Below, piece by piece: positions 8,055 to 60,017 of a stretch of 64,000 nt of DNA. Within the stretch, counting starts at the first letter, position 1, and each line of letters starts with the position of its first letter. The notes under the pieces were generated by a model. The model saw only the letters and a list, made by a program, of their open reading frames with translations. It was not told where the DNA came from and made no database searches. Source of the stretch: Candidatus Chisholmbacteria bacterium (GTDB lineage Bacteria > Patescibacteriota > Microgenomatia > UBA1400 > Chisholmbacteraceae); assembly GCA_963704905.1 (NCBI GenBank), contig CAVPHZ010000001.1:1089-65088 (forward strand), written 5' to 3'. The translations under genes and the position numbers were made by a program.

Positions 8055-8603
8055 TTATGACTTTAACTTTGTGGAATATTTTTCTTTTAAAGCTTTGAGT
8101 TTTGGCGAAATGACGAACGTGCAGTACGCAGCAGACGAATTATTAATATAGTAATTCTGGTGATACTCCTCCGCTTTAAAAAACTCTGTTAAGGGTACTA
8201 TTTGGGTGACAATTTTATCCTTATATTCTCCGCTCGCGCTCAACTCTTTTAGCAGCTTATTTGCAATATCTTTCTGCTCGTCATTAATATAGAGAATTAT
8301 TGATCGATATTGTGTTCCAGTATCAGATCCTTGCCTGTTTATAGTGGTGGGATCATGTGAATGCCAGAATATATCCAGAAGATCTCTGTAGGAGATCATT
8401 TGGGGATCAAATTCTATACGAACCGTCTCTGCATGTCCGGTGTCCGTATTGCTAACTTGATCATAGGTCGGATTGTTTACTGACCCACCAGCATAACCGG
8501 GAGTCACTGATATGACACCTTTTATCTGCTGGAAGATTGCTTCTGTGCACCAAAAACAGCCTCCTCCAAATACAGCAATTTGTTTATTTTTCATCCTTAC
8601 CAA
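8055..8603 (-). CDS. msrA: peptide methionine (S)-sulfoxide reductase MsrA
   Basis: Catalytic motif GGGCFWCTEAIF and GYAGG. Overlaps msrB by 20 nt. Confidence 0.9.
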   Translation of the reverse strand: MVRMKNKQIAVFGGGCFWCTEAIFQQIKGVISVTPGYAGGSVNNPTYDQVSNTDTGHAETVRIEFDPQMISYRDLLDIFWHSHDPTTINRQGSDTGTQYRSIILYINDEQKDIANKLLKELSASGEYKDKIVTQIVPLTEFFKAEEYHQNYYINNSSAAYCTFVISPKLKALKEKYSTKLKS

Positions 8604-8952
8604 TAAACTTCAGAGACATTGAATTGACGCAGTGACGAGTATTCTTGGGTGTATCACCTTCACCTTCAAAAACATGACCTAAGTGCGCACCGCATGAATT
8701 ACAGGTAATCTCAGTTCTGCGACCATCAGCATCTAGAGTTCGTTTTACTGCATCGTCTATTTCTTGATCAAAGCTAGGCCATCCGCAGTGTGCGTCAAAT
8801 TTATCTGAAGAATTATATAGTGGAGCATCACATTGCTTGCATACATAGACCCCATCCTCAAAAAATTCGTCGTACTTTCCCGTGAAGGGGGCTTCCGTGC
8901 CCTTGTCGATAATCACTCTTTTTTCTTCTTCAGTTAATTGATTTACTTTCAT
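8584..8952 (-). CDS. msrB: peptide methionine (R)-sulfoxide reductase MsrB
   Basis: SelR fold motifs CKQCDAPLY...HCGWPSF and CNSCGAHLGHVF (two CxxC zinc sites, catalytic Cys). Confidence 0.9.
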   Translation of the reverse strand: MKVNQLTEEEKRVIIDKGTEAPFTGKYDEFFEDGVYVCKQCDAPLYNSSDKFDAHCGWPSFDQEIDDAVKRTLDADGRRTEITCNSCGAHLGHVFEGEGDTPKNTRHCVNSMSLKFIGKDEK

Positions 8953-8954
8953 GT

Positions 8955-10682
8955 TTATCCAAATGTAAAAGCAAATAGTTCTAGATTGTTATCTTGGAAG
9001 ATTAGCTTGAGAGTATGTTTTCCAGGACTATCTAAACGGATGAGTTTGTAGAGCCTGTCCTTATCCACAGTTATAATTCCATCATCTACGTCTGCCCCCT
9101 TGTTGGTGGCGTCAACCGTCTGGCCATCAAGTGTTACTTCAATCCTACCGGCGCCGTTTTTCGACCTCATGACAAGAAATACTTCACTGGCTTCAAAATT
9201 TAAAATCAATGATCCACCTTGAGTTGGCTTTGCATATTCTTCTCCGATTTCCCAAGTGCTGGTATACGCAAAGCGATTGGGAAGTAAAGTATTGGGAGCT
9301 GAATATTCTTGTGGTGCGTTTTGGATGATGCGCTCTGGTGATTGAAAGTATTCGATTCTACCATAGCCCAAATAGAGCTCCGGTGTACGAGCTGTAATCG
9401 TATATTCAGGATTATCAATAGTTGTTTGGTTAACTTCAGTACCTGCTTCTTTGAGTAATGTTTGTATCACTTTTTCTGTTTCGTCGTAATCACCTTCACC
9501 ATAGTGGTGGTAACGAATATTCCCCTTCGCATCGATAAGATATTTTGCAGGCCAGTAATGATTGTCGTATGCTCGCCAAGTTGCGTAGTCATTATCCTGC
9601 ATGATTGGGTACGTTAACTCAAAGTCGTTGACGGCATCTTTTAGATTGTTAATGTCTTTTTCAAATTCAAACTCAGGTGTATGGACACCAATAATTACAA
9701 GTCCTTCATCACCATACTTTTCATTCCAACTCTTAAGGTAAGGTAGTGTTCGGATGCAATTAATGCAGGTGTAGGTCCAAAAGTCGATCAGGACAACTTT
9801 TCCCCGCAATTGCTCAAGTGTGAGCGGATCGCTATTTACCCATTCTCCACCAGGTATGAGATTTGGCGCAGTTCCTTCCTCTTCGAGCATTTCAAACATT
9901 GGTCTTCCCTTCTCTTCTGATTTTCCATTTGCATCTCCACGAAGACTTTGGAGTTCTTTTTGCACTGCTTGGTTTTCTTCCAACTTTGTCAGGCCTGTTC
10001 CATAGCTTGGGAAAGCATCTAGCACGAAGGTCTGAATTTTTCGATCGTAGTTAAAGTGTATGCCAATTGCTGTCAGGATCATCAGCATTCCAAAGGCTTT
10101 TTGAATTTTGCCAGTGTTGCTCACAAGCGTAGGTACTCGTGAGAGGAGTCCCTTTCCACCATAGAGAATTGCGAGCATCGGTAGTGCTGTGCCTACTGAA
10201 TACGCAAGCGTAATCATGAAGCTGGCTTGGGTAACCTCTCCGGTTAAAGCAAGTGAAATTACCGAGGCAAGAATTGGCCCAACACATGGGGTCCATATGA
10301 GACCAATACTTATACCGACAAGAAGACCGCCAAAAAAACCTTGGCCGCTTGTTGATGTTGGAACGATACCTGATAATTTTGAAAAGAGTTTTTCCATCTC
10401 GAGCTGAAATCGAGGTACGAGCAGGCTTACACCAAACAACCCCACAACGAGCACGGAGAGCACGCGTAAACTGTCAGCAGGTATACCAATTGCTTTCACA
10501 ATTGCAGTGAGAAATAAGGTGAAAAAGGTGAAGCTGATAATAAATCCCGTGACTACACCAAAAGGCCGTCTTTTACCACCTGAAACAGAACTCGATAACA
10601 CTATCGGGAGAATAGGTAAGATGCAAGGAGAAAGTATAGTTACAACTCCTGCCAAAAATGCAAAGCTAATGAGAACAATCAT
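8955..10682 (-). CDS. CcdA/DsbD-type thiol-disulfide transporter fused to a TlpA-like thioredoxin domain and a C-terminal beta-rich domain
   Basis: N-terminal 6-8 TM region with two Cys (LSPCILPIL, WTPCVGPIL) as in the DsbD / cytochrome c biogenesis family. Then WTYTCINC (CxxC) in a thioredoxin fold. A ~150-aa C-terminal domain is of unknown type. Confidence 0.8.
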   Translation of the reverse strand: MIVLISFAFLAGVVTILSPCILPILPIVLSSSVSGGKRRPFGVVTGFIISFTFFTLFLTAIVKAIGIPADSLRVLSVLVVGLFGVSLLVPRFQLEMEKLFSKLSGIVPTSTSGQGFFGGLLVGISIGLIWTPCVGPILASVISLALTGEVTQASFMITLAYSVGTALPMLAILYGGKGLLSRVPTLVSNTGKIQKAFGMLMILTAIGIHFNYDRKIQTFVLDAFPSYGTGLTKLEENQAVQKELQSLRGDANGKSEEKGRPMFEMLEEEGTAPNLIPGGEWVNSDPLTLEQLRGKVVLIDFWTYTCINCIRTLPYLKSWNEKYGDEGLVIIGVHTPEFEFEKDINNLKDAVNDFELTYPIMQDNDYATWRAYDNHYWPAKYLIDAKGNIRYHHYGEGDYDETEKVIQTLLKEAGTEVNQTTIDNPEYTITARTPELYLGYGRIEYFQSPERIIQNAPQEYSAPNTLLPNRFAYTSTWEIGEEYAKPTQGGSLILNFEASEVFLVMRSKNGAGRIEVTLDGQTVDATNKGADVDDGIITVDKDRLYKLIRLDSPGKHTLKLIFQDNNLELFAFTFG

Positions 10683-10694
10683 ACATCAAACTTT

Positions 10695-10985
10695 CTACCT
10701 ATCCCCCATCATGATGTCATTGTCATCCATCATTGTTTCACCTTCCGATGTCGCCTCTTTATCCTCCATCATTGCGTCATCGTCTTCCATCATTTTATCT
10801 TCATTATCCATCATTGCGTCATCGTCTTCCATCATTTTATCTTCATTCTCCATCATTTCTTCTGATGTTTCTCCAGTTGTTGTCGGAGCAAATGCAGATT
10901 GCTGAGATTGAAGTAATACATAACCAAAGACTAGCGCGATAATTCCAATGATTACTATTATTGTTGTCTTATTCATATATATCAC
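10695..10985 (-). CDS. membrane-anchored acidic Met-Met repeat protein
   Basis: One N-terminal TM helix, then MMENEDKMMEDDDAMMDNEDKMMEDDDAMMEDKEATSEGETMMDDNDIMMGD with nine Met-Met dipeptides. Encoded by a ~45-bp tandem repeat at 10761-10852. Lies 12 bp upstream of the CcdA-Trx gene on the same strand. Confidence 0.55.
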   Translation of the reverse strand: MIYMNKTTIIVIIGIIALVFGYVLLQSQQSAFAPTTTGETSEEMMENEDKMMEDDDAMMDNEDKMMEDDDAMMEDKEATSEGETMMDDNDIMMGDR

Positions 10986-11042
10986 CTCCTTTGCTAATAC
11001 ATACTAAGGTATTTCAGAGATAATTGTCAAGTATACTTTACA

Positions 11043-11411
11043 TCATTGACGGATGCGGCTATACATTCTGGATGCTATCTTGGAGAGCACCATCAAAGAT
11101 AGAGTGTAGACTAACCAGGGATCGACATTATGTCTGAAGCTCTGAATAACTACACCCAAAATAAGCATCGATGTTCCTGTTAAAAACGATATTCTACCGG
11201 CATTAAGTCTATGAAATTCTTCCCTTTCATCTGTAGATCGCTCCATCCAGATTAACGAAGCAAATACGATGAATGCCAGAATGAGAAGTACGCTTGCCAT
11301 GAGTGCAAATGAATCTGGCATTAATAGCTTGGTTGGCTGAATAAAGAGCAATAAAATACTCAGCATGATGCCTGCTGTGATGATTTCACTTCTAAGGTTA
11401 TTATTTCTCAT
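11043..11411 (-). CDS. 4-TM membrane protein (DUF2975-like partner of an XRE regulator)
   Basis: Hydrophobic 122-aa protein. Start overlaps the stop of the upstream XRE gene. Confidence 0.45.
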   Translation of the reverse strand: MRNNNLRSEIITAGIMLSILLLFIQPTKLLMPDSFALMASVLLILAFIVFASLIWMERSTDEREEFHRLNAGRISFLTGTSMLILGVVIQSFRHNVDPWLVYTLSLMVLSKIASRMYSRIRQ

Positions 11412-11614
11412 GATTCTATTGTAAATATTTTTTCAACCGGTGTCTTGAAGTATTTTGAAATTTTTATTGCAAGAGAGACTGATGGTGTGTAATTCCCTTT
11501 CTCAATCGCAATTATCGTTTGCCTTGTCACATTTACAACATCGGCCAATTCTTCCTGAGTGGTTTTATTTTTTTTACGTAGACTATAAACGTTGTTGTTT
11601 ACTTTTTCCTTCAT
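11408..11614 (-). CDS. XRE-family helix-turn-helix transcriptional regulator
   Basis: LRKKNKTTQEELADVVNVTRQTIIAIEKGNYTPSVSLAIKISKYF is a classic Cro/C1 HTH. Confidence 0.8.
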   Translation of the reverse strand: MKEKVNNNVYSLRKKNKTTQEELADVVNVTRQTIIAIEKGNYTPSVSLAIKISKYFKTPVEKIFTIES

Positions 11615-36934: not shown

Positions 36935-37513
36935 TTATATGTTATTCGTATTTTCTAAAATCTCATCGAGATCTCCGCCATTCCATTTTTGAATTTCGTT
37001 TCCCTGCGCATCAACTTGCACAAAGGTATGTTGGCTTACAATGCCGTATTTTTTCTTGAGTGTTGATTCTTTATCATAATCAGTCTTGAGAATAGTAAGA
37101 CCTGCTGGGATTTCATCGAGACGACTTGTAATGTCTTGCTCGGCTGCTCGGCAAAACGGACACCAGGTCGCGTGGAAAAAGAGAACGGCCGTACCATTAT
37201 TAGCTGTGGCCTGCGTAAGATTTTCCTGCGAGTATTTGACATATTCACCTGCTGAACCACTTTTCATCATCGCATCGCCATTCGTATCCATAGCGTTGTC
37301 TTCATGATCACCTGATGTTGCGTCTCCATTTGGGGTTTGTGCCATTTTACTGTCACTGCCATTTTCAGTACTTGTGCTTGGTTGTGATGTGCTCGTTAAC
37401 GTCTGTGTGTCCGAGGCTGTTTTTGACGCATTCAGCACAAATATTCCACCGATACCAAGAACTGCAACAAGACCAATGACTATTAATACACCTTTATTCA
37501 TAATTCTACTCAC
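36935..37513 (-). CDS. membrane-anchored thioredoxin-family protein
   Basis: Signal/TM helix and Ser/Thr-rich linker, then LFFHATWCPFCRAAEQD (CxxC). Confidence 0.7.
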   Translation of the reverse strand: MSRIMNKGVLIVIGLVAVLGIGGIFVLNASKTASDTQTLTSTSQPSTSTENGSDSKMAQTPNGDATSGDHEDNAMDTNGDAMMKSGSAGEYVKYSQENLTQATANNGTAVLFFHATWCPFCRAAEQDITSRLDEIPAGLTILKTDYDKESTLKKKYGIVSQHTFVQVDAQGNEIQKWNGGDLDEILENTNNI

Positions 37514-38367: not shown

Positions 38368-38441
38368 TGCCGGGTGGTGAAATGGTATCACGGCTGGCTC
38401 TGAACCAGTTATTCTAGGTTCGAATCCTAGCCCGGCAGCCA
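38368..38441 (+). tRNA. tRNA-Gln (anticodon CTG)
   Basis: Manual fold: acceptor stem TGCCGGG/CCCGGCA with the U1-A72 pair typical of bacterial tRNA-Gln, D-arm GTGA-AATGGTA-TCAC, anticodon arm GCTGG-CTCTGAA-CCAGT with anticodon CTG, T-arm CTAGG-TTCGAAT-CCTAG, discriminator G, encoded CCA. Confidence 0.85.
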
Positions 38442-38508: not shown

Positions 38509-38787
38509 ATGAACATGGGTTCATATAATTGCTGTGTTCCAGAAACCAAAGAGTTTACACAAGTAAGTTCTCTATCAACACTGTTAAAGTTGGTAGGTGA
38601 GGAAAGTAGGTTGAAGCTTCTGTGCCTGCTTCATCAAGGAGAGCATTGTGTGTGTGAAATGCTAGAGCACTTTGACATGTCGCAAAGTTTGGTGTCGCAT
38701 CATTTGTCGGATTTAAAGGAAGCTGGATTAGTGAGCATCCGAAAAGATGGAAGACAAGTACATTACTCACTTACTGCCAAGAGGTGA
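38509..38787 (+). CDS. ArsR/SmtB-family metalloregulator
   Basis: LLCLLHQGEHCVCEMLEHFDMSQSLVSHHLSDLKEAGLV is a winged HTH with Cys pairs at the ArsR metal-site position. Confidence 0.85.
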   Translation: MNMGSYNCCVPETKEFTQVSSLSTLLKLVGEESRLKLLCLLHQGEHCVCEMLEHFDMSQSLVSHHLSDLKEAGLVSIRKDGRQVHYSLTAKR

Positions 38788-38814
38788 TAAAGTTACTAAT
38801 TCGATATTTTCTAT

Positions 38815-39111
38815 GTGAGAGGAAAAGATATGAAAATCCAGGTTTTAGGTTCAGGTTGTACTACCTGTAAAAAGTTGTATGAAACTACCAAAGAAGCAGT
38901 TAAGGACATGGAAGGTGAATATGAAGTTGAATATGTCACTGGAACAGATGGCACTCAGAAAATAATCGAGCTAGGTGCTATGAATAGTCCGGTACTGGCA
39001 GTAAATGACCAAATTGCTATGACTGGTTTTACTCCCGACTTAAGAAGATTCAAGACAAAATTAAGAAACTTACCTAATGGATATTTTCGCCCCAATTCAA
39101 GCCTTGTCTGA
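38815..39111 (+). CDS. thioredoxin-like protein (redox-active disulfide protein 2 family)
   Basis: MKIQVLGSGCTTCKKLYE with a CxxC at the N-terminus of a short Trx fold, commonly paired with ArsR and arsenic permeases. The C-terminal 20 aa overlap the next ORF, so the end is uncertain. Confidence 0.6.
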   Translation: MRGKDMKIQVLGSGCTTCKKLYETTKEAVKDMEGEYEVEYVTGTDGTQKIIELGAMNSPVLAVNDQIAMTGFTPDLRRFKTKLRNLPNGYFRPNSSLV

Positions 39112-39643
39112 TGAGGTCACCTACCAGTGGCTGAGTATTACTCAAGGCTCGTATTTAGGGAAAGCGGTCAACTTTTTTATCTATGATGTGATCAAGATTG
39201 GTCTACTTTTGATTGCCATCAATTACCTGATGGCGATGGTTAGATACTATTTACCTGTAGCTAAAATAAACCAAGTATTAACCGGTAAAAACTGGTATGG
39301 GCTGGACTATTTAGTGGCAGCACTACTGGGCGTGGTTACCCCTTTTTGTTCTTGCTCATCGATCCCACTGTTTATCGGTTTTTTATCTGCTGGTATCCCA
39401 ATTGGCGTGACCTTTACATTCCTCATTAGCTCCCCTTTGGTTAATGAAGCTTCACTCTTTCTATTTCCGGCTATGTTTGGTCTCAAAATCACCCTGCTTT
39501 ACAACCTGATCGGTATGCTGGTGGCAATCATCGGTGGCTGGTTGATAGGTAAGTTATCCATGGAGCGGTTTATCCAACCCGAGTTTAAAAGCATTACATC
39601 AACTGCAAAAATACAAGAAGATGAAGGTGATAAAACGCCATGA
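39077..39643 (+). CDS. ArsP-like permease (DUF318 / PF03773), N-terminal half
   Basis: TPFCSCSSIPLF motif of organoarsenical permeases. Ends in a hydrophilic linker, and the stop overlaps the next start (ATGA). Confidence 0.6.
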   Translation: MDIFAPIQALSDEVTYQWLSITQGSYLGKAVNFFIYDVIKIGLLLIAINYLMAMVRYYLPVAKINQVLTGKNWYGLDYLVAALLGVVTPFCSCSSIPLFIGFLSAGIPIGVTFTFLISSPLVNEASLFLFPAMFGLKITLLYNLIGMLVAIIGGWLIGKLSMERFIQPEFKSITSTAKIQEDEGDKTP

Positions 39644-40056
39644 GAAAATTGGCAGTATCTTGGTGGCATGATGGCATGACTATCACCAAGCAAATATTTC
39701 CATATGTGGTACTAGGTGTGGCAATCGGTGCTATAATTCACGGCTTTGTACCTGATAGCTTTGTGAGTCAGTACCTCAGCACTGACGCCTGGTGGGTCAT
39801 TCCCGTTGCAGTTATTGCCGGAGTACCTCTTTACGCCAATTCAGTCAGTGTCATCCCAATTGTAGAAGCATCCGTAGGCAAAGGCGTCATGATTGGTACG
39901 GCTTTAGCTTTTATGACTGCCATTGTGACTCTATCAATCCCGGAGGCATTGATGCTAAAAAAAGCCATGAAGTGGCAGCTACTGGCTGCGTTTTTTGGGA
40001 TTACTATTATTGGCATTATGATTATCGGCTATGTATTTAATGCCATATCAACTTAA
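39640..40056 (+). CDS. ArsP-like permease, C-terminal half (separate ORF)
   Basis: 4-TM continuation. The combined length of 326 aa equals a single typical family member. Confidence 0.6.
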   Translation: MRKLAVSWWHDGMTITKQIFPYVVLGVAIGAIIHGFVPDSFVSQYLSTDAWWVIPVAVIAGVPLYANSVSVIPIVEASVGKGVMIGTALAFMTAIVTLSIPEALMLKKAMKWQLLAAFFGITIIGIMIIGYVFNAIST

Positions 40057-59776: not shown

Positions 59777-60017
59777 TAAATGCTTAGTGAAAGTAAAAAA
59801 TATTAGCTCTCCCTCCCAGGACGAACTCAAGATATGGAACCTTTTTTAAAGTGAATTCGTATATTGATTTTCTTCTGGCTTCTTCGTAATATGTCTCTAA
59901 GAAGTTGTGTTTAAGGAATCTGGTGAAATTCCAGAACTGTGCCGCAACTGTAATCCGACTTAAAGCTCGGTAAGTCAGAAAACTAACAACTTCTAGTATC
60001 CCGAGCAGGAGAAATTC

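What the first reader, a model, noticed from the sequence alone, without database searches (positions are those of the whole stretch)
8055..10985. Co-directional Met-Met repeat peptide, CcdA-thioredoxin fusion, MsrB and MsrA: a possible self-contained methionine-redox buffering operon
Four minus-strand genes are separated by 12 bp, 2 bp and a 20-bp overlap. The first encodes a membrane-anchored, highly acidic peptide with nine Met-Met dipeptides in ~50 residues. Next comes a DsbD/CcdA-type membrane electron conduit fused to a TlpA-like CxxC thioredoxin domain, then MsrB and MsrA. CcdA-Trx supplying electrons to extracytoplasmic Msr enzymes is established, for example in the pneumococcal CcdA-Etrx-MsrAB system. 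Adding a dedicated Met-rich, membrane-tethered peptide as first gene suggests a built-in sacrificial Met sink whose oxidised forms are recycled by the co-encoded reductases. Alternatively it is a Met-based Cu(I) binding site. The extra ~150-aa C-terminal domain on the CcdA-Trx protein is also unassigned.
Basis: partly seen in the sequence, partly recalled or inferred. Interest (0 to 1): 0.65.

Follow-up and report, generated by a model that had tools for sequence, protein, structure and literature searches.

The report
Surface Met-Met repeat peptide beside DipZ
A small, unannotated gene for a membrane-tethered peptide carrying seven evenly spaced Met-Met pairs sits in front of a known membrane electron exporter (DipZ) and two ordinary cytoplasmic methionine-repair enzymes. 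Similar Met-Met peptides recur beside DipZ genes in unrelated bacteria, but the co-encoded repair enzymes lie on the wrong side of the membrane to recycle it.

Summary
The four co-directional minus-strand genes are real, with the stated spacings of 12 bp, 2 bp and a 20-bp overlap (11 bp from the ATG start). Three details need correcting:
- The peptide starts at ATG 10976, behind an AGGAGG ribosome-binding site, and is 93 aa long.
- It has seven Met-Met pairs, not nine, at an exact 7-residue spacing.
- The "unassigned" C-terminal domain is Pfam PF17991. The 575-aa protein is a DipZ (PDB 2HYX, E=2e-57).

MsrB and MsrA have no signal or membrane segment, so they are cytoplasmic. The peptide tail and the DipZ thioredoxin domain face outward. 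None of 29 related DipZ loci carries this Msr arrangement.

The new result concerns the peptide. It is a "linker-only" member of a large class of exported Met-Met/acidic heptad repeats that no Pfam or NCBIfam model matches. In this class the repeat mostly tethers thioredoxins, cupredoxins and DM13 domains to the membrane in CPR bacteria. Free-standing versions lie directly beside DipZ/CcdA genes in 4 of 8 cases examined, including actinobacteria-like DipZ–peptide–ECF sigma–RskA clusters.

The best reading is a surface oxidant sink resembling MrpX, co-expressed with DipZ. Copper binding is the main rival.

The parts
11001..11030 (-). Promoter-like site TTGACA-18 nt-TAGTAT, about 25 nt upstream of the peptide start codon
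   Evidence: Consensus scan, 10 of 12 matches. The number of such sites in the region is not above the shuffled expectation, so this is suggestive only.
10984..10989 (-). Shine-Dalgarno sequence AGGAGG, 7 nt before ATG 10976
   Evidence: Read directly from the sequence.
10695..10976 (-). Met-Met repeat peptide gene: 93 aa plus stop, unannotated in the public protein collection
   Evidence: - ORF and translation.
- Closest homologue P0121 at E=3.2e-08.
- The class profile finds 131 clusters.
- The exact sequence is absent from the collection with either start, although the neighbouring genes are present.
10899..10970 (-). N-terminal signal-anchor helix, residues 3-26
   Evidence: - AlphaFold helix 3-26 with pLDDT about 90.
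- Kyte-Doolittle 19-residue maximum of 2.74.
- Lys3 on the N-side and an acidic C-side imply N-in/C-out.
- Pro follows the only Ala-x-Ala site, so cleavage is unlikely (inference).
10707..10856 (-). Acidic heptad-repeat tail with seven Met-Met pairs (residues 41-90), predicted disordered and extracytoplasmic
   Evidence: Met-Met positions and spacing; pLDDT 50-65, no secondary structure.
10765..10857 (-). 42-bp tandem duplication (2.2 copies, 98% identical) over a 21-bp period, kept in frame
   Evidence: Tandem Repeats Finder.
8955..10682 (-). DipZ, 575 aa. CcdA-type six-helix membrane domain (residues 3-207; Cys20 and Cys133), TlpA/Redoxin-like domain (about 283-412; C306-I-N-C309) and PF17991 beta-sandwich domain (433-575)
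   Evidence: - Pfam.
- PDB 2HYX/5CYY at E=2e-57 and CcdA 5VKV at 3.8e-10.
- Cysteine positions.
- Relatives are named DipZ by NCBI.
8584..8952 (-). MsrB, 122 aa, leaderless. Zn-site CxxC pairs at 38/41 and 84/87, resolving Cys56 (CGWP), catalytic Cys108 (RHC)
   Evidence: - Pfam SelR 1.6e-44 over residues 6-117.
- NCBIfam NF004036, 209 bits against a cut-off of 179.
- Motifs.
- No hydrophobic segment.
8055..8594 (-). MsrA, 179 aa from ATG 8594 (182 aa from TTG 8603), leaderless, with a GCFWC active site
   Evidence: - Pfam PMSR 2.4e-65.
- TIGR00401, 200.7 bits.
- Motif.
- The 179-aa form is the one on record.
11043..11411 (-). 122-aa membrane protein directly upstream. Syntenic with the DipZ cassette in relatives
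   Evidence: tblastn matches of 35-50% identity next to DipZ or an anchored thioredoxin in L005, L009, L021, L023 and L024. L043 has the same arrangement. No Pfam or NCBIfam family.
11408..11614 (-). 68-aa XRE-type HTH protein overlapping the start of the 122-aa gene. Candidate regulator of the cassette
   Evidence: Pfam HTH_3 3.1e-15. It is 63-70% identical and syntenic in L005, L009, L021 and L023.

Best explanation
This is an envelope redox and oxidative-stress gene cluster from a candidate-phyla-radiation (Microgenomates-type) bacterium. It is probably transcribed from its own promoter-like site as peptide-dipZ-msrB-msrA, downstream of a conserved HTH/membrane-protein pair.

**Shown**
- Gene 1 encodes a 93-aa signal-anchored peptide. 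Its tail is predicted to be disordered and consists of acidic heptads that each end in Ala/Lys-Met-Met.
- Gene 2 is a canonical DipZ. A CcdA conduit with its two membrane cysteines passes electrons to an outward-facing CxxC thioredoxin-like domain, followed by a CBM-like domain.
- Genes 3 and 4 are ordinary leaderless MsrB and MsrA.
- The peptide occupies the gene slot that holds an anchored thioredoxin or an anchored cupredoxin in relatives. It shares its N-terminal anchor with the cupredoxin. It is therefore a 'linker-only' derivative of a DipZ-neighbour protein.
- It belongs to a large class of exported Met-Met/acidic heptad repeats that no Pfam or NCBIfam model matches.
- Free-standing members of that class recur immediately beside DipZ/CcdA genes in separate lineages.

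**Inferred**
- The tail is outside the cell, by the positive-inside rule.
- The tail acts as a solvent-exposed thioether sink, in the manner of MrpX. It absorbs HOCl- or peroxide-type oxidants at the surface and shields the reduced cysteines of the DipZ relay and its clients.
- The cytoplasmic MsrA/B are co-expressed because they answer the same stress and draw on the same cytoplasmic thioredoxin pool. They do not recycle the peptide.
- Oxidised peptide would be replaced, or reduced by a partner not encoded here.
For: **Anatomy**
- ORFs, ribosome-binding site, promoter-like site and repeat.
- Domain identities.

**Topology**
- Anchor helix with a disordered tail.
- No hydrophobic segment in MsrA or MsrB, and six hydrophobic segments in DipZ with Lys/Arg-rich odd loops.

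**Gene slot**
- HTH-TM122-[anchored thioredoxin]-DipZ in L021, L005 and L043.
- An anchored cupredoxin sits directly upstream of the two closest DipZ relatives, which are 66-68% identical.
- Peptide against that cupredoxin: BLASTP E=4e-10, 38% identity over 72 residues.

**Class**
- The profile search finds 131 clusters. The 120 listed split into 64 thioredoxin, 16 cupredoxin, 8 DM13, 8 PG-binding, 3 FAS1, 5 with other domains and 16 with no Pfam domain; 12 of those 16 are free-standing peptides of 115 aa or less.
- 75% of Met in these linkers are paired, against 32% expected. The modal spacing is 7.

**Recurrence beside DipZ/CcdA**
- P0132 overlaps the start of a CcdA-type gene by 1 nt.
- P0196 and P0163 lie between DipZ and an ECF sigma/RskA pair in contigs of 64-65% GC.

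**Function**
- MrpX has 20% Met and 44% charged residues, is exported, and is oxidised sacrificially by hypochlorite (PMC4436054). The Brucella homologue BcrX behaves similarly (PMC8315932). The tail here has 22% Met and 48% charged residues.
Against: - No extracytoplasmic Met-sulfoxide reductase is encoded in the cluster or in the 64-kb window, so a sink here could not be regenerated by anything visible.
- Most DipZ loci lack any Met-rich ORF. Only L005 has one among 29, so the peptide is dispensable for DipZ function.
- The 98%-identical 42-bp duplication shows that the repeat is evolving by slippage, which is also compatible with a neutral low-complexity linker.
- Four of eight free-standing peptides examined are not near DipZ.
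- The cupredoxin ancestry points towards copper rather than oxidants.
- The class statistics are biased, because the profile was built from Met-Met sequences.
- No expression or oxidation data exist.
Confidence: 0.42

Rival explanations
1. Soft-metal (Cu(I)/Ag(I)) buffer or copper-delivery arm. The clustered thioethers of the tethered tail, with the carboxylates for Cu(II), capture copper at the surface. DipZ keeps nearby cysteines reduced, as TlpA does for ScoI/CoxB and as the Scs system does under copper stress (established knowledge, not tested here).
For: - The same gene slot holds an anchored cupredoxin (YHCTPHPNM copper site) in the two closest DipZ relatives. Its N-terminus is homologous to the peptide. 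L001 also has a cupredoxin two genes upstream.
- 16 of the 120 listed class members are cupredoxins with Met-Met linkers.
- Met-rich segments are well-known Cu(I) ligands.
Against: - The tail has no MxM, MxxM or MxxxM motif and no His or Cys. Every Met is in an adjacent pair, and pairs are 7 residues apart.
- No copper ATPase, chaperone or sensor lies in the cluster.
- Most class members are thioredoxins, not copper proteins.
- The window cluster carries msr genes, not cop genes.
Confidence: 0.25
2. The peptide is oxidised outside the cell, and its Met sulfoxides are reduced by the co-encoded MsrA/MsrB using electrons from the CcdA-thioredoxin fusion.
For: - The gene order is tight, with overlaps.
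- The composition resembles MrpX (PMC4436054).
- The DipZ thioredoxin domain weakly resembles the PilB-type thioredoxin domain that feeds periplasmic MsrA/B (NF010625, E=5.4e-06).
- CcdA-Etrx-MsrAB2 is an established pathway (PMC3914529).
Against: - MsrA and MsrB have no signal peptide or membrane segment, and there is no room for one. SpMsrAB2 has an anchor (PMC3914529) and MsrP is Tat-exported (PMC4436054).
- There is no slippery site that could fuse DipZ to MsrB across the 2-nt gap (inspection).
- The msr linkage is unique to this genome among 29 DipZ loci.
Confidence: 0.08
3. A domain-loss remnant or generic spacer. A deletion removed the cupredoxin or thioredoxin domain of the ancestral slot gene. 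It left the signal anchor and a slippage-prone acidic linker that is still expressed but has no specific role. Met-Met/Asp runs arise easily because ATG and GAT repeats are the same trinucleotide in different phases.
For: - N-terminal homology to the slot cupredoxin.
- A recent 98%-identical duplication.
- Orthologous thioredoxin linkers vary from Met-rich to Met-free.
- The ORF is not annotated in the public record.
Against: - The ORF has a strong ribosome-binding site and an intact frame.
- Free-standing peptides of the same composition are kept at the same position beside DipZ in different genomes although their sequences have diverged (P0196 and P0163).
- The motif persists in organisms of 64-65% GC, where Asp is not encoded by GAT repeats.
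- The strict pairing and heptad spacing are highly non-random.
Confidence: 0.15
4. A DipZ-docking or regulatory module. The Met-Met/acidic repeat is recognised by the DipZ ectodomain, for example by its PF17991 beta-sandwich, and so recruits client proteins. A free peptide would then modulate or compete for DipZ.
For: - Domains that carry the linker (thioredoxin, cupredoxin, FAS1) overlap with the proteins encoded next to DipZ here and in mycobacteria, where the neighbours are mpt70/mpt83 (PMC9861118).
- 4 of 8 free-standing peptides abut DipZ/CcdA.
Against: - There is no direct evidence.
- The PF17991 domain is described as carbohydrate-binding-module-like (reference cited in PMC9861118).
- Many DipZ-adjacent thioredoxins have no Met-rich linker.
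Confidence: 0.1

Closest known systems
MrpX / BcrX, the methionine-rich 'MXKDX repeat' periplasmic peptides of the yedYZ(msrPQ)-mrpX operons (Azospira suillum, Brucella)
   Same: - Small exported peptide made almost entirely of Met (about 20%) and charged residues.
- Encoded in an operon with methionine sulfoxide reductase genes.
- Low-complexity repeat.
   Different: - The repeat unit here is a 7-residue acidic unit ending in Met-Met, not the 5-residue MxKDx unit. No NCBIfam or Pfam model matches it.
- The peptide is membrane-tethered rather than soluble.
- The co-encoded reductases are cytoplasmic MsrA/B rather than exported MsrP.
- The recurrent genomic partner is DipZ/CcdA rather than MsrPQ with an ECF sigma factor.
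Pneumococcal CcdA1-Etrx1-MsrAB2 extracellular repair pathway
   Same: A CcdA-type conduit and an outward-facing thioredoxin-fold domain are encoded with MsrA and MsrB functions in one cluster.
   Different: - MsrAB2 is membrane-anchored and surface-exposed. Here MsrA and MsrB are separate and leaderless.
- The thioredoxin domain is fused to CcdA, together with a PF17991 domain, rather than being a lipoprotein.
- The pneumococcal operon has no Met-rich peptide.
Mycobacterium tuberculosis DipZ (Rv2874) and the SigK-RskA regulon (mpt83-dipZ-mpt70)
   Same: - Same three-part architecture: CcdA, thioredoxin-like domain and CBM-like PF17991 domain (E=2e-57 to 2HYX).
- Neighbours are small exported or anchored proteins.
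- The actinobacteria-like loci L044 and L048 place a Met-rich lipopeptide between DipZ and an ECF sigma/RskA pair.
   Different: - No Met-rich peptide has been described in the mycobacterial locus.
- The window cluster uses an XRE-HTH/membrane-protein pair instead of SigK-RskA, and adds msrB-msrA.
Met-rich Cu(I)/Ag(I) binding segments (CopC/PcoC, PcoE/SilE, CueO insert, Ctr1 'Mets' motifs)
   Same: A high density of thioether side chains in an exported, flexible segment, with a copper protein (cupredoxin) in the homologous gene slot of relatives.
   Different: - The canonical MxM/MxxM spacing and His residues are absent.
- Met occur only as adjacent pairs at 7-residue intervals in a strongly acidic background.

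Membership tests
DipZ (CcdA + thioredoxin-like + PF17991) | DsbD/CcdA membrane domain with one cysteine in each of two PC-motif helices | tested here: met
   PF02683 2.5e-10 over residues 3-207. CcdA structure 5VKV at 3.8e-10. Cys20 (SPCILP) and Cys133 (TPCVGP).
DipZ (CcdA + thioredoxin-like + PF17991) | Extracytoplasmic TlpA/Redoxin-type domain with CxxC, followed by the PF17991 beta-sandwich | tested here: met
   Redoxin 5e-13 and PF17991 4.4e-36 over its full length. C306-I-N-C309. 2HYX/5CYY at E=2e-57.
MsrB (PF01641) and MsrA (PF01625) | Catalytic domain with catalytic and resolving cysteines | tested here: met
   SelR 1.6e-44 and PMSR 2.4e-65. NF004036 and TIGR00401 score above their cut-offs. 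RHC108, C56GWP and GC13FWC16.
Extracytoplasmic CcdA-Trx-Msr repair pathway (pneumococcal type; PilB type) | The Msr enzyme carries a signal peptide or membrane anchor, so that it meets the exported thioredoxin domain | tested here: not met
   Highest Kyte-Doolittle 19-residue mean is -0.07 for MsrB and 1.13 for MsrA. The domains start at residues 6-10. SpMsrAB2 has a transmembrane segment (PMC3914529). A dedicated predictor such as SignalP or DeepTMHMM was not available.
MrpX / MXKDX-repeat methionine-rich peptide | Exported small protein with about 20% Met and about 44% charged residues | tested here: met
   Signal-anchor helix at residues 3-26. The tail has 14 Met and 30 charged residues out of 63. 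Reference values are from PMC4436054.
MrpX / MXKDX-repeat methionine-rich peptide | MxKDx pentapeptide repeat, or sequence homology to the family | tested here: not met
   The repeat is a heptad [DEN][ED]D[AK]MM[ED]. No NCBIfam or Pfam family with a meaningful score, even at E up to 5.
MrpX / MXKDX-repeat methionine-rich peptide | Co-encoded exported methionine sulfoxide reductase (MsrP/YedY with MsrQ) that regenerates the peptide | tested here: not met
   Only leaderless MsrA and MsrB are present. No other Msr was found in the window by tblastn. The rest of the genome could not be searched.
MrpX / MXKDX-repeat methionine-rich peptide | Oxidant-induced expression and sacrificial oxidation of its Met residues | not testable with these tools
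   This needs expression data and biochemistry.
Met-motif Cu(I)-binding segments | MxM, MxxM or MxxxM motifs, often with His | tested here: not met
   Met positions are 41/42, 48/49, 55/56, 62/63, 69/70, 82/83 and 89/90. There is no His or Cys in the peptide.
Exported Met-Met/acidic heptad-repeat class (defined here) | Signal anchor or lipobox, then repeats of [DEK][DE]D[AS]MM[EK] at about 7-residue spacing | tested here: met
   Profile A2 retrieves 131 clusters at E<=1e-3. Paired-Met fraction is 0.75 against 0.32 expected, with modal spacing 7. The window peptide seeded the profile, so its own membership is by construction.

The most novel reading that the evidence does not exclude
Met-Met/acidic heptad repeats are a dedicated partner module of the DipZ/CcdA extracytoplasmic reducing pathway. 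Either the DipZ ectodomain binds them, or DipZ-fed chemistry regenerates their oxidised thioethers. This would give CPR bacteria and some actinobacteria a surface methionine-redox buffer that works without any exported Msr enzyme, and it would finally assign a physiological substrate to DipZ.
Probability: 0.12. Interest if true: 0.8.

Novelty: new variant of a known kind. Interest (0 to 1): 0.55.

Why it matters
- The physiological clients of DipZ are still unclear, even in M. tuberculosis.
- Sacrificial Met-rich peptides have so far been shown only for proteobacterial MrpX/BcrX paired with MsrPQ.
- A recurrent, cross-phylum pairing of DipZ/CcdA with exported Met-Met repeat peptides and linkers suggests a surface antioxidant or metal-buffering device. 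It would operate in bacteria with tiny genomes and no outer membrane.
- The work also yields a concrete motif (DDAMM[EK], 7-residue spacing) that can be searched for and tested.
- It shows that an unannotated small ORF is probably a real gene.
- The operon itself, read as a closed methionine-redox loop, is not supported.

Tried and rejected
1. **Single-sequence word-index search with the peptide.** No hit.
2. **Exact-sequence context look-ups for the peptide and for the window's DipZ.** Nothing on record. The neighbourhood in the source genome beyond the window could not be read.
3. **Conservation of the four-gene order.** Rejected. None of 29 DipZ loci has msrB-msrA downstream. Only L007 has a divergently oriented msrB.
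4. **Met-codon leader peptide or attenuator controlling the msr genes.** Rejected for these reasons:
   - the ORF encodes a membrane anchor;
   - it has protein-level relatives;
   - it ends 12 nt before dipZ with no terminator-like structure in between.
5. **Frameshift or readthrough fusing DipZ to MsrB, which would put MsrB outside.** No slippery motif lies at TTT GGA TAA AC ATG, and no such fusion appeared among relatives.
6. **RiPP precursor.** No modifying enzymes are nearby.
7. **The palindrome AAGTATACTT abutting the -35 element as an HTH operator.** It is not enriched in the window, so the idea was left open.
8. **Opposite-strand ORFs 10507-10905 and 10733-10942.** These are mirror-image low complexity antisense to dipZ and the peptide, and are not genes.
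9. **AlphaFold of the peptide alone.** It gives only the anchor helix and a low-confidence tail. A fold search would be meaningless and was not run.
10. **Literature searches.** Methionine-rich + DipZ and methionine-rich + Patescibacteria returned nothing; methionine-rich + CcdA + copper returned one irrelevant paper.

Full report
**1. What is in the sequence**

Four minus-strand ORFs lie at 10695-10985, 8955-10682, 8584-8952 and 8055-8603. They are separated by 12 bp and 2 bp, followed by a 20-bp overlap, exactly as described.

Reading the DNA shows an AGGAGG at 10989-10984 and an ATG at 10976. The listed GTG start at 10985 lies inside that ribosome-binding site. The peptide is therefore most likely 93 aa long.

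A TTGACA-18-TAGTAT promoter-like site lies at 11030-11001. Such sites are not over-represented in the region, so it is only suggestive.

The peptide has these properties:
- It has a 24-residue hydrophobic helix after Met-Asn-Lys.
- Its 63-residue tail holds 14 Met, 26 Asp/Glu and 4 Lys/Arg.
- There are seven Met-Met dipeptides, not nine.
- Every tail Met is in a pair, and the pairs are spaced 7, 7, 7, 7, 13, 7 residues apart. Only 4 of 200,000 shuffles of the tail pair all Met.
- A 42-bp tandem duplication (98% identical) sits over an older 21-bp period.

**2. The three enzymes are ordinary members of known families**

The 575-aa protein contains DsbD_TM, Redoxin/AhpC-TSA and, at residues 433-575, Pfam PF17991 over its full length (4.4e-36).
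- Its ectodomain matches the M. tuberculosis DipZ structures 2HYX/5CYY at E=2e-57. Its membrane part matches CcdA 5VKV.
- It has exactly four cysteines: Cys20 and Cys133 in the membrane domain, and C306-I-N-C309.
- NCBI names its relatives DipZ.

The 'unassigned' C-terminal domain is therefore the known DipZ beta-sandwich. The literature describes it as carbohydrate-binding-module-like (reference cited in PMC9861118).

MsrB (SelR 1.6e-44; NF004036 above its cut-off) and MsrA (PMSR 2.4e-65; TIGR00401) carry the expected cysteines.

**3. Topology**

MsrB and MsrA have no hydrophobic segment. Their highest 19-residue Kyte-Doolittle means are -0.07 and 1.13, against 2.7 for the peptide anchor. Their catalytic domains start at residues 6-10. 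They are cytoplasmic.

DipZ has its Lys/Arg-rich loops after helices 1, 3 and 5. That places the thioredoxin-like domain outside, as in the published ectodomain.

The peptide has Lys3 on the N-side and an acidic C-side, so its tail should be outside. AlphaFold gives a confident helix at 3-26 and an unstructured tail. A Pro follows the only Ala-x-Ala site, so the anchor probably stays attached (inference).

In the pneumococcal precedent MsrAB2 is membrane-anchored (PMC3914529). In the MrpX system the reductase is Tat-exported (PMC4436054).

**4. Relatives**

The window comes from a CPR (Microgenomates-type) genome. Its DipZ is on record from a 772,908-bp contig. The best relatives are named Levy-, Woese-, Gottesman- and Shapirobacteria.

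Among 29 loci with a full DipZ, none has msrB-msrA downstream. One (L007) has a divergently oriented msrB.

What is conserved is an XRE-HTH (68 aa) plus a 122-aa membrane protein, followed by DipZ (L009, L023, L024). In L021 a membrane-anchored thioredoxin of about 165 aa sits between them, and L005 has the same order ending in a CcdA-only paralogue. L043 shows HTH, membrane protein and anchored thioredoxin up to the contig end.

The two closest DipZ relatives (66-68% identity) instead have an anchored cupredoxin directly upstream. Its N-terminus (MNKTLIFVVIAVLVLGGGYLLMSQQNAAPGTAPSTGEGSLED) aligns with the window peptide at BLASTP E=4e-10.

The Met-rich ORF thus occupies the slot of a DipZ-neighbour protein. 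It looks like the anchor and linker of such a protein without its folded domain. The window keeps a full anchored thioredoxin elsewhere, at 36935-37513.

**5. A wider class**

An exhaustive HMMER search with the peptide found 13 proteins. These included:
- an 89-aa free-standing homologue (P0121, 3.2e-08);
- small lipoproteins (P0127, P0132);
- an anchored thioredoxin (P0122) and a fasciclin protein (P0123), both with long Met-Met/acidic linkers.

A profile of seven such segments retrieved 131 clusters. The 120 listed break down as follows:

| Domain attached | Clusters |
|---|---|
| Thioredoxin | 64 |
| Cupredoxin | 16 |
| DM13 | 8 |
| PG_binding_1 | 8 |
| Fasciclin (FAS1) | 3 |
| PF03640 | 2 |
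| Cytochrome b5 | 1 |
| TSP3 | 1 |
| DUF4399 | 1 |
| No Pfam domain | 16 (12 of them 115 aa or shorter) |

Further properties of the class:
- The motif is [DEK][DE]D[AS]MM[EK].
- 75% of Met are paired, against 32% expected. The modal spacing is 7.
- These statistics are biased, because the profile was built from Met-Met sequences.
- The motif persists in contigs of 64-65% GC. This argues against a pure ATG/GAT slippage artefact.
- No Pfam or NCBIfam model covers it.
- Three literature searches turned up nothing relevant: two returned no paper and one returned a single irrelevant review.

**6. Recurrent neighbour**

Contexts of free-standing peptides:
- P0132 overlaps the start of a CcdA-type gene by one nucleotide.
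- P0196 (two contigs) and P0163 lie between a full DipZ and an ECF sigma/RskA-type anti-sigma pair in actinobacteria-like contigs. This recalls the SigK-RskA control of dipZ in mycobacteria (PMC9861118).
- P0121, P0127, P0191 and P0228 have no DipZ or Msr nearby.

Counting the window, 4 of 8 free-standing peptides abut DipZ/CcdA. That is far more than chance adjacency to a one- or two-copy gene would give (my estimate). None is near an Msr.

The converse does not hold. Only one of the 29 DipZ-ascertained loci (L005) carries a Met-rich segment.

**7. Interpretation**

The closed 'peptide recycled by co-encoded Msr' cycle is not supported.

The best-supported reading has three parts:
- The cluster is an envelope redox/oxidative-stress cluster.
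- A surface-tethered, disordered thioether-rich tail, functionally like MrpX, is co-expressed with the DipZ reducing relay.
- The cytoplasmic MsrA/B draw on the same thioredoxin pool.

The main rival is copper or other soft-metal binding. The cupredoxin ancestry and the cupredoxin members of the class support it. The absence of MxM/MxxM motifs and of His counts against it.

A remnant or spacer reading and a DipZ-docking reading cannot be excluded.

The Met-rich ORF is absent from the public protein collection with either start, although its neighbours are present. It is apparently unannotated.

**8. Verdict**

The enzymes are already known. The operon as a self-contained methionine-redox loop is not supported. 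The peptide is a new variant of the Met-rich sacrificial-peptide idea, and it belongs to an undescribed motif class that pairs repeatedly with DipZ. Interest is moderate (0.55). It would be higher if DipZ proves to act on or bind these repeats.

Noticed in passing
window 11043-11614 (-); L005, L009, L021, L023, L024, L043: A 68-aa XRE-type HTH protein and a 122-aa membrane protein with no family assignment overlap each other. They are syntenic with the anchored-thioredoxin/DipZ cassette in several CPR loci. They may be a membrane-linked regulator of the cassette.
   Followed up: partly
L044 3216-6659, L045 351-3794, L048 3229-6654: Actinobacteria-like contigs (GC 0.64-0.65 in L044 and L045) carry DipZ, then a 74-76-aa Met/acid-rich lipopeptide, then an ECF sigma factor and an RskA-type anti-sigma factor. 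This is a conserved arrangement reminiscent of the mycobacterial SigK-RskA/dipZ regulon.
   Followed up: partly
window 36935-37513 (-): A full-length membrane-anchored thioredoxin (WCPFC). It is a paralogue of the protein that sits upstream of DipZ in relatives. It has a short acidic linker containing AMD/AMM and is not next to any CcdA gene.
   Followed up: partly
L037 252-713, L038 1-171, L001 3424-3912: Membrane-anchored cupredoxins (YHC..H..M copper site) are encoded directly upstream of DipZ in L037 and L038, and two genes upstream in L001. This suggests that DipZ services a copper protein in some CPR bacteria.
   Followed up: partly
window 10695-10976 (-): The Met-rich ORF is missing from the 15-billion-protein collection with either possible start. 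DipZ, MsrB, MsrA and the 122-aa protein of the same contig are present. The ORF appears to be unannotated.
   Followed up: yes
window 38509-40056 (+): An ArsR-like HTH gene, then a small CxxC thioredoxin-like protein (MKIQVLGSGCTTCKK...), then a permease split into two overlapping ORFs. These were read from the translations only.
   Followed up: no
window 59888-60005 (+) and 38368-38438 (+): A cobalamin riboswitch (43 bits) and a tRNA gene are the only Rfam matches in the window.
   Followed up: no
window 11029-11038: A perfect 10-bp palindrome, AAGTATACTT, abuts the -35-like hexamer in front of the peptide gene. It could be an operator for the upstream HTH protein, but it is not repeated elsewhere in the cluster.
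   Followed up: partly
L046 5001-5836: The 115-aa peptide P0191, with DKDDDAMM repeats, is followed by a 163-aa ORF that also starts with the same repeat in another frame. Transposase and integrase genes lie on both sides.
   Followed up: no
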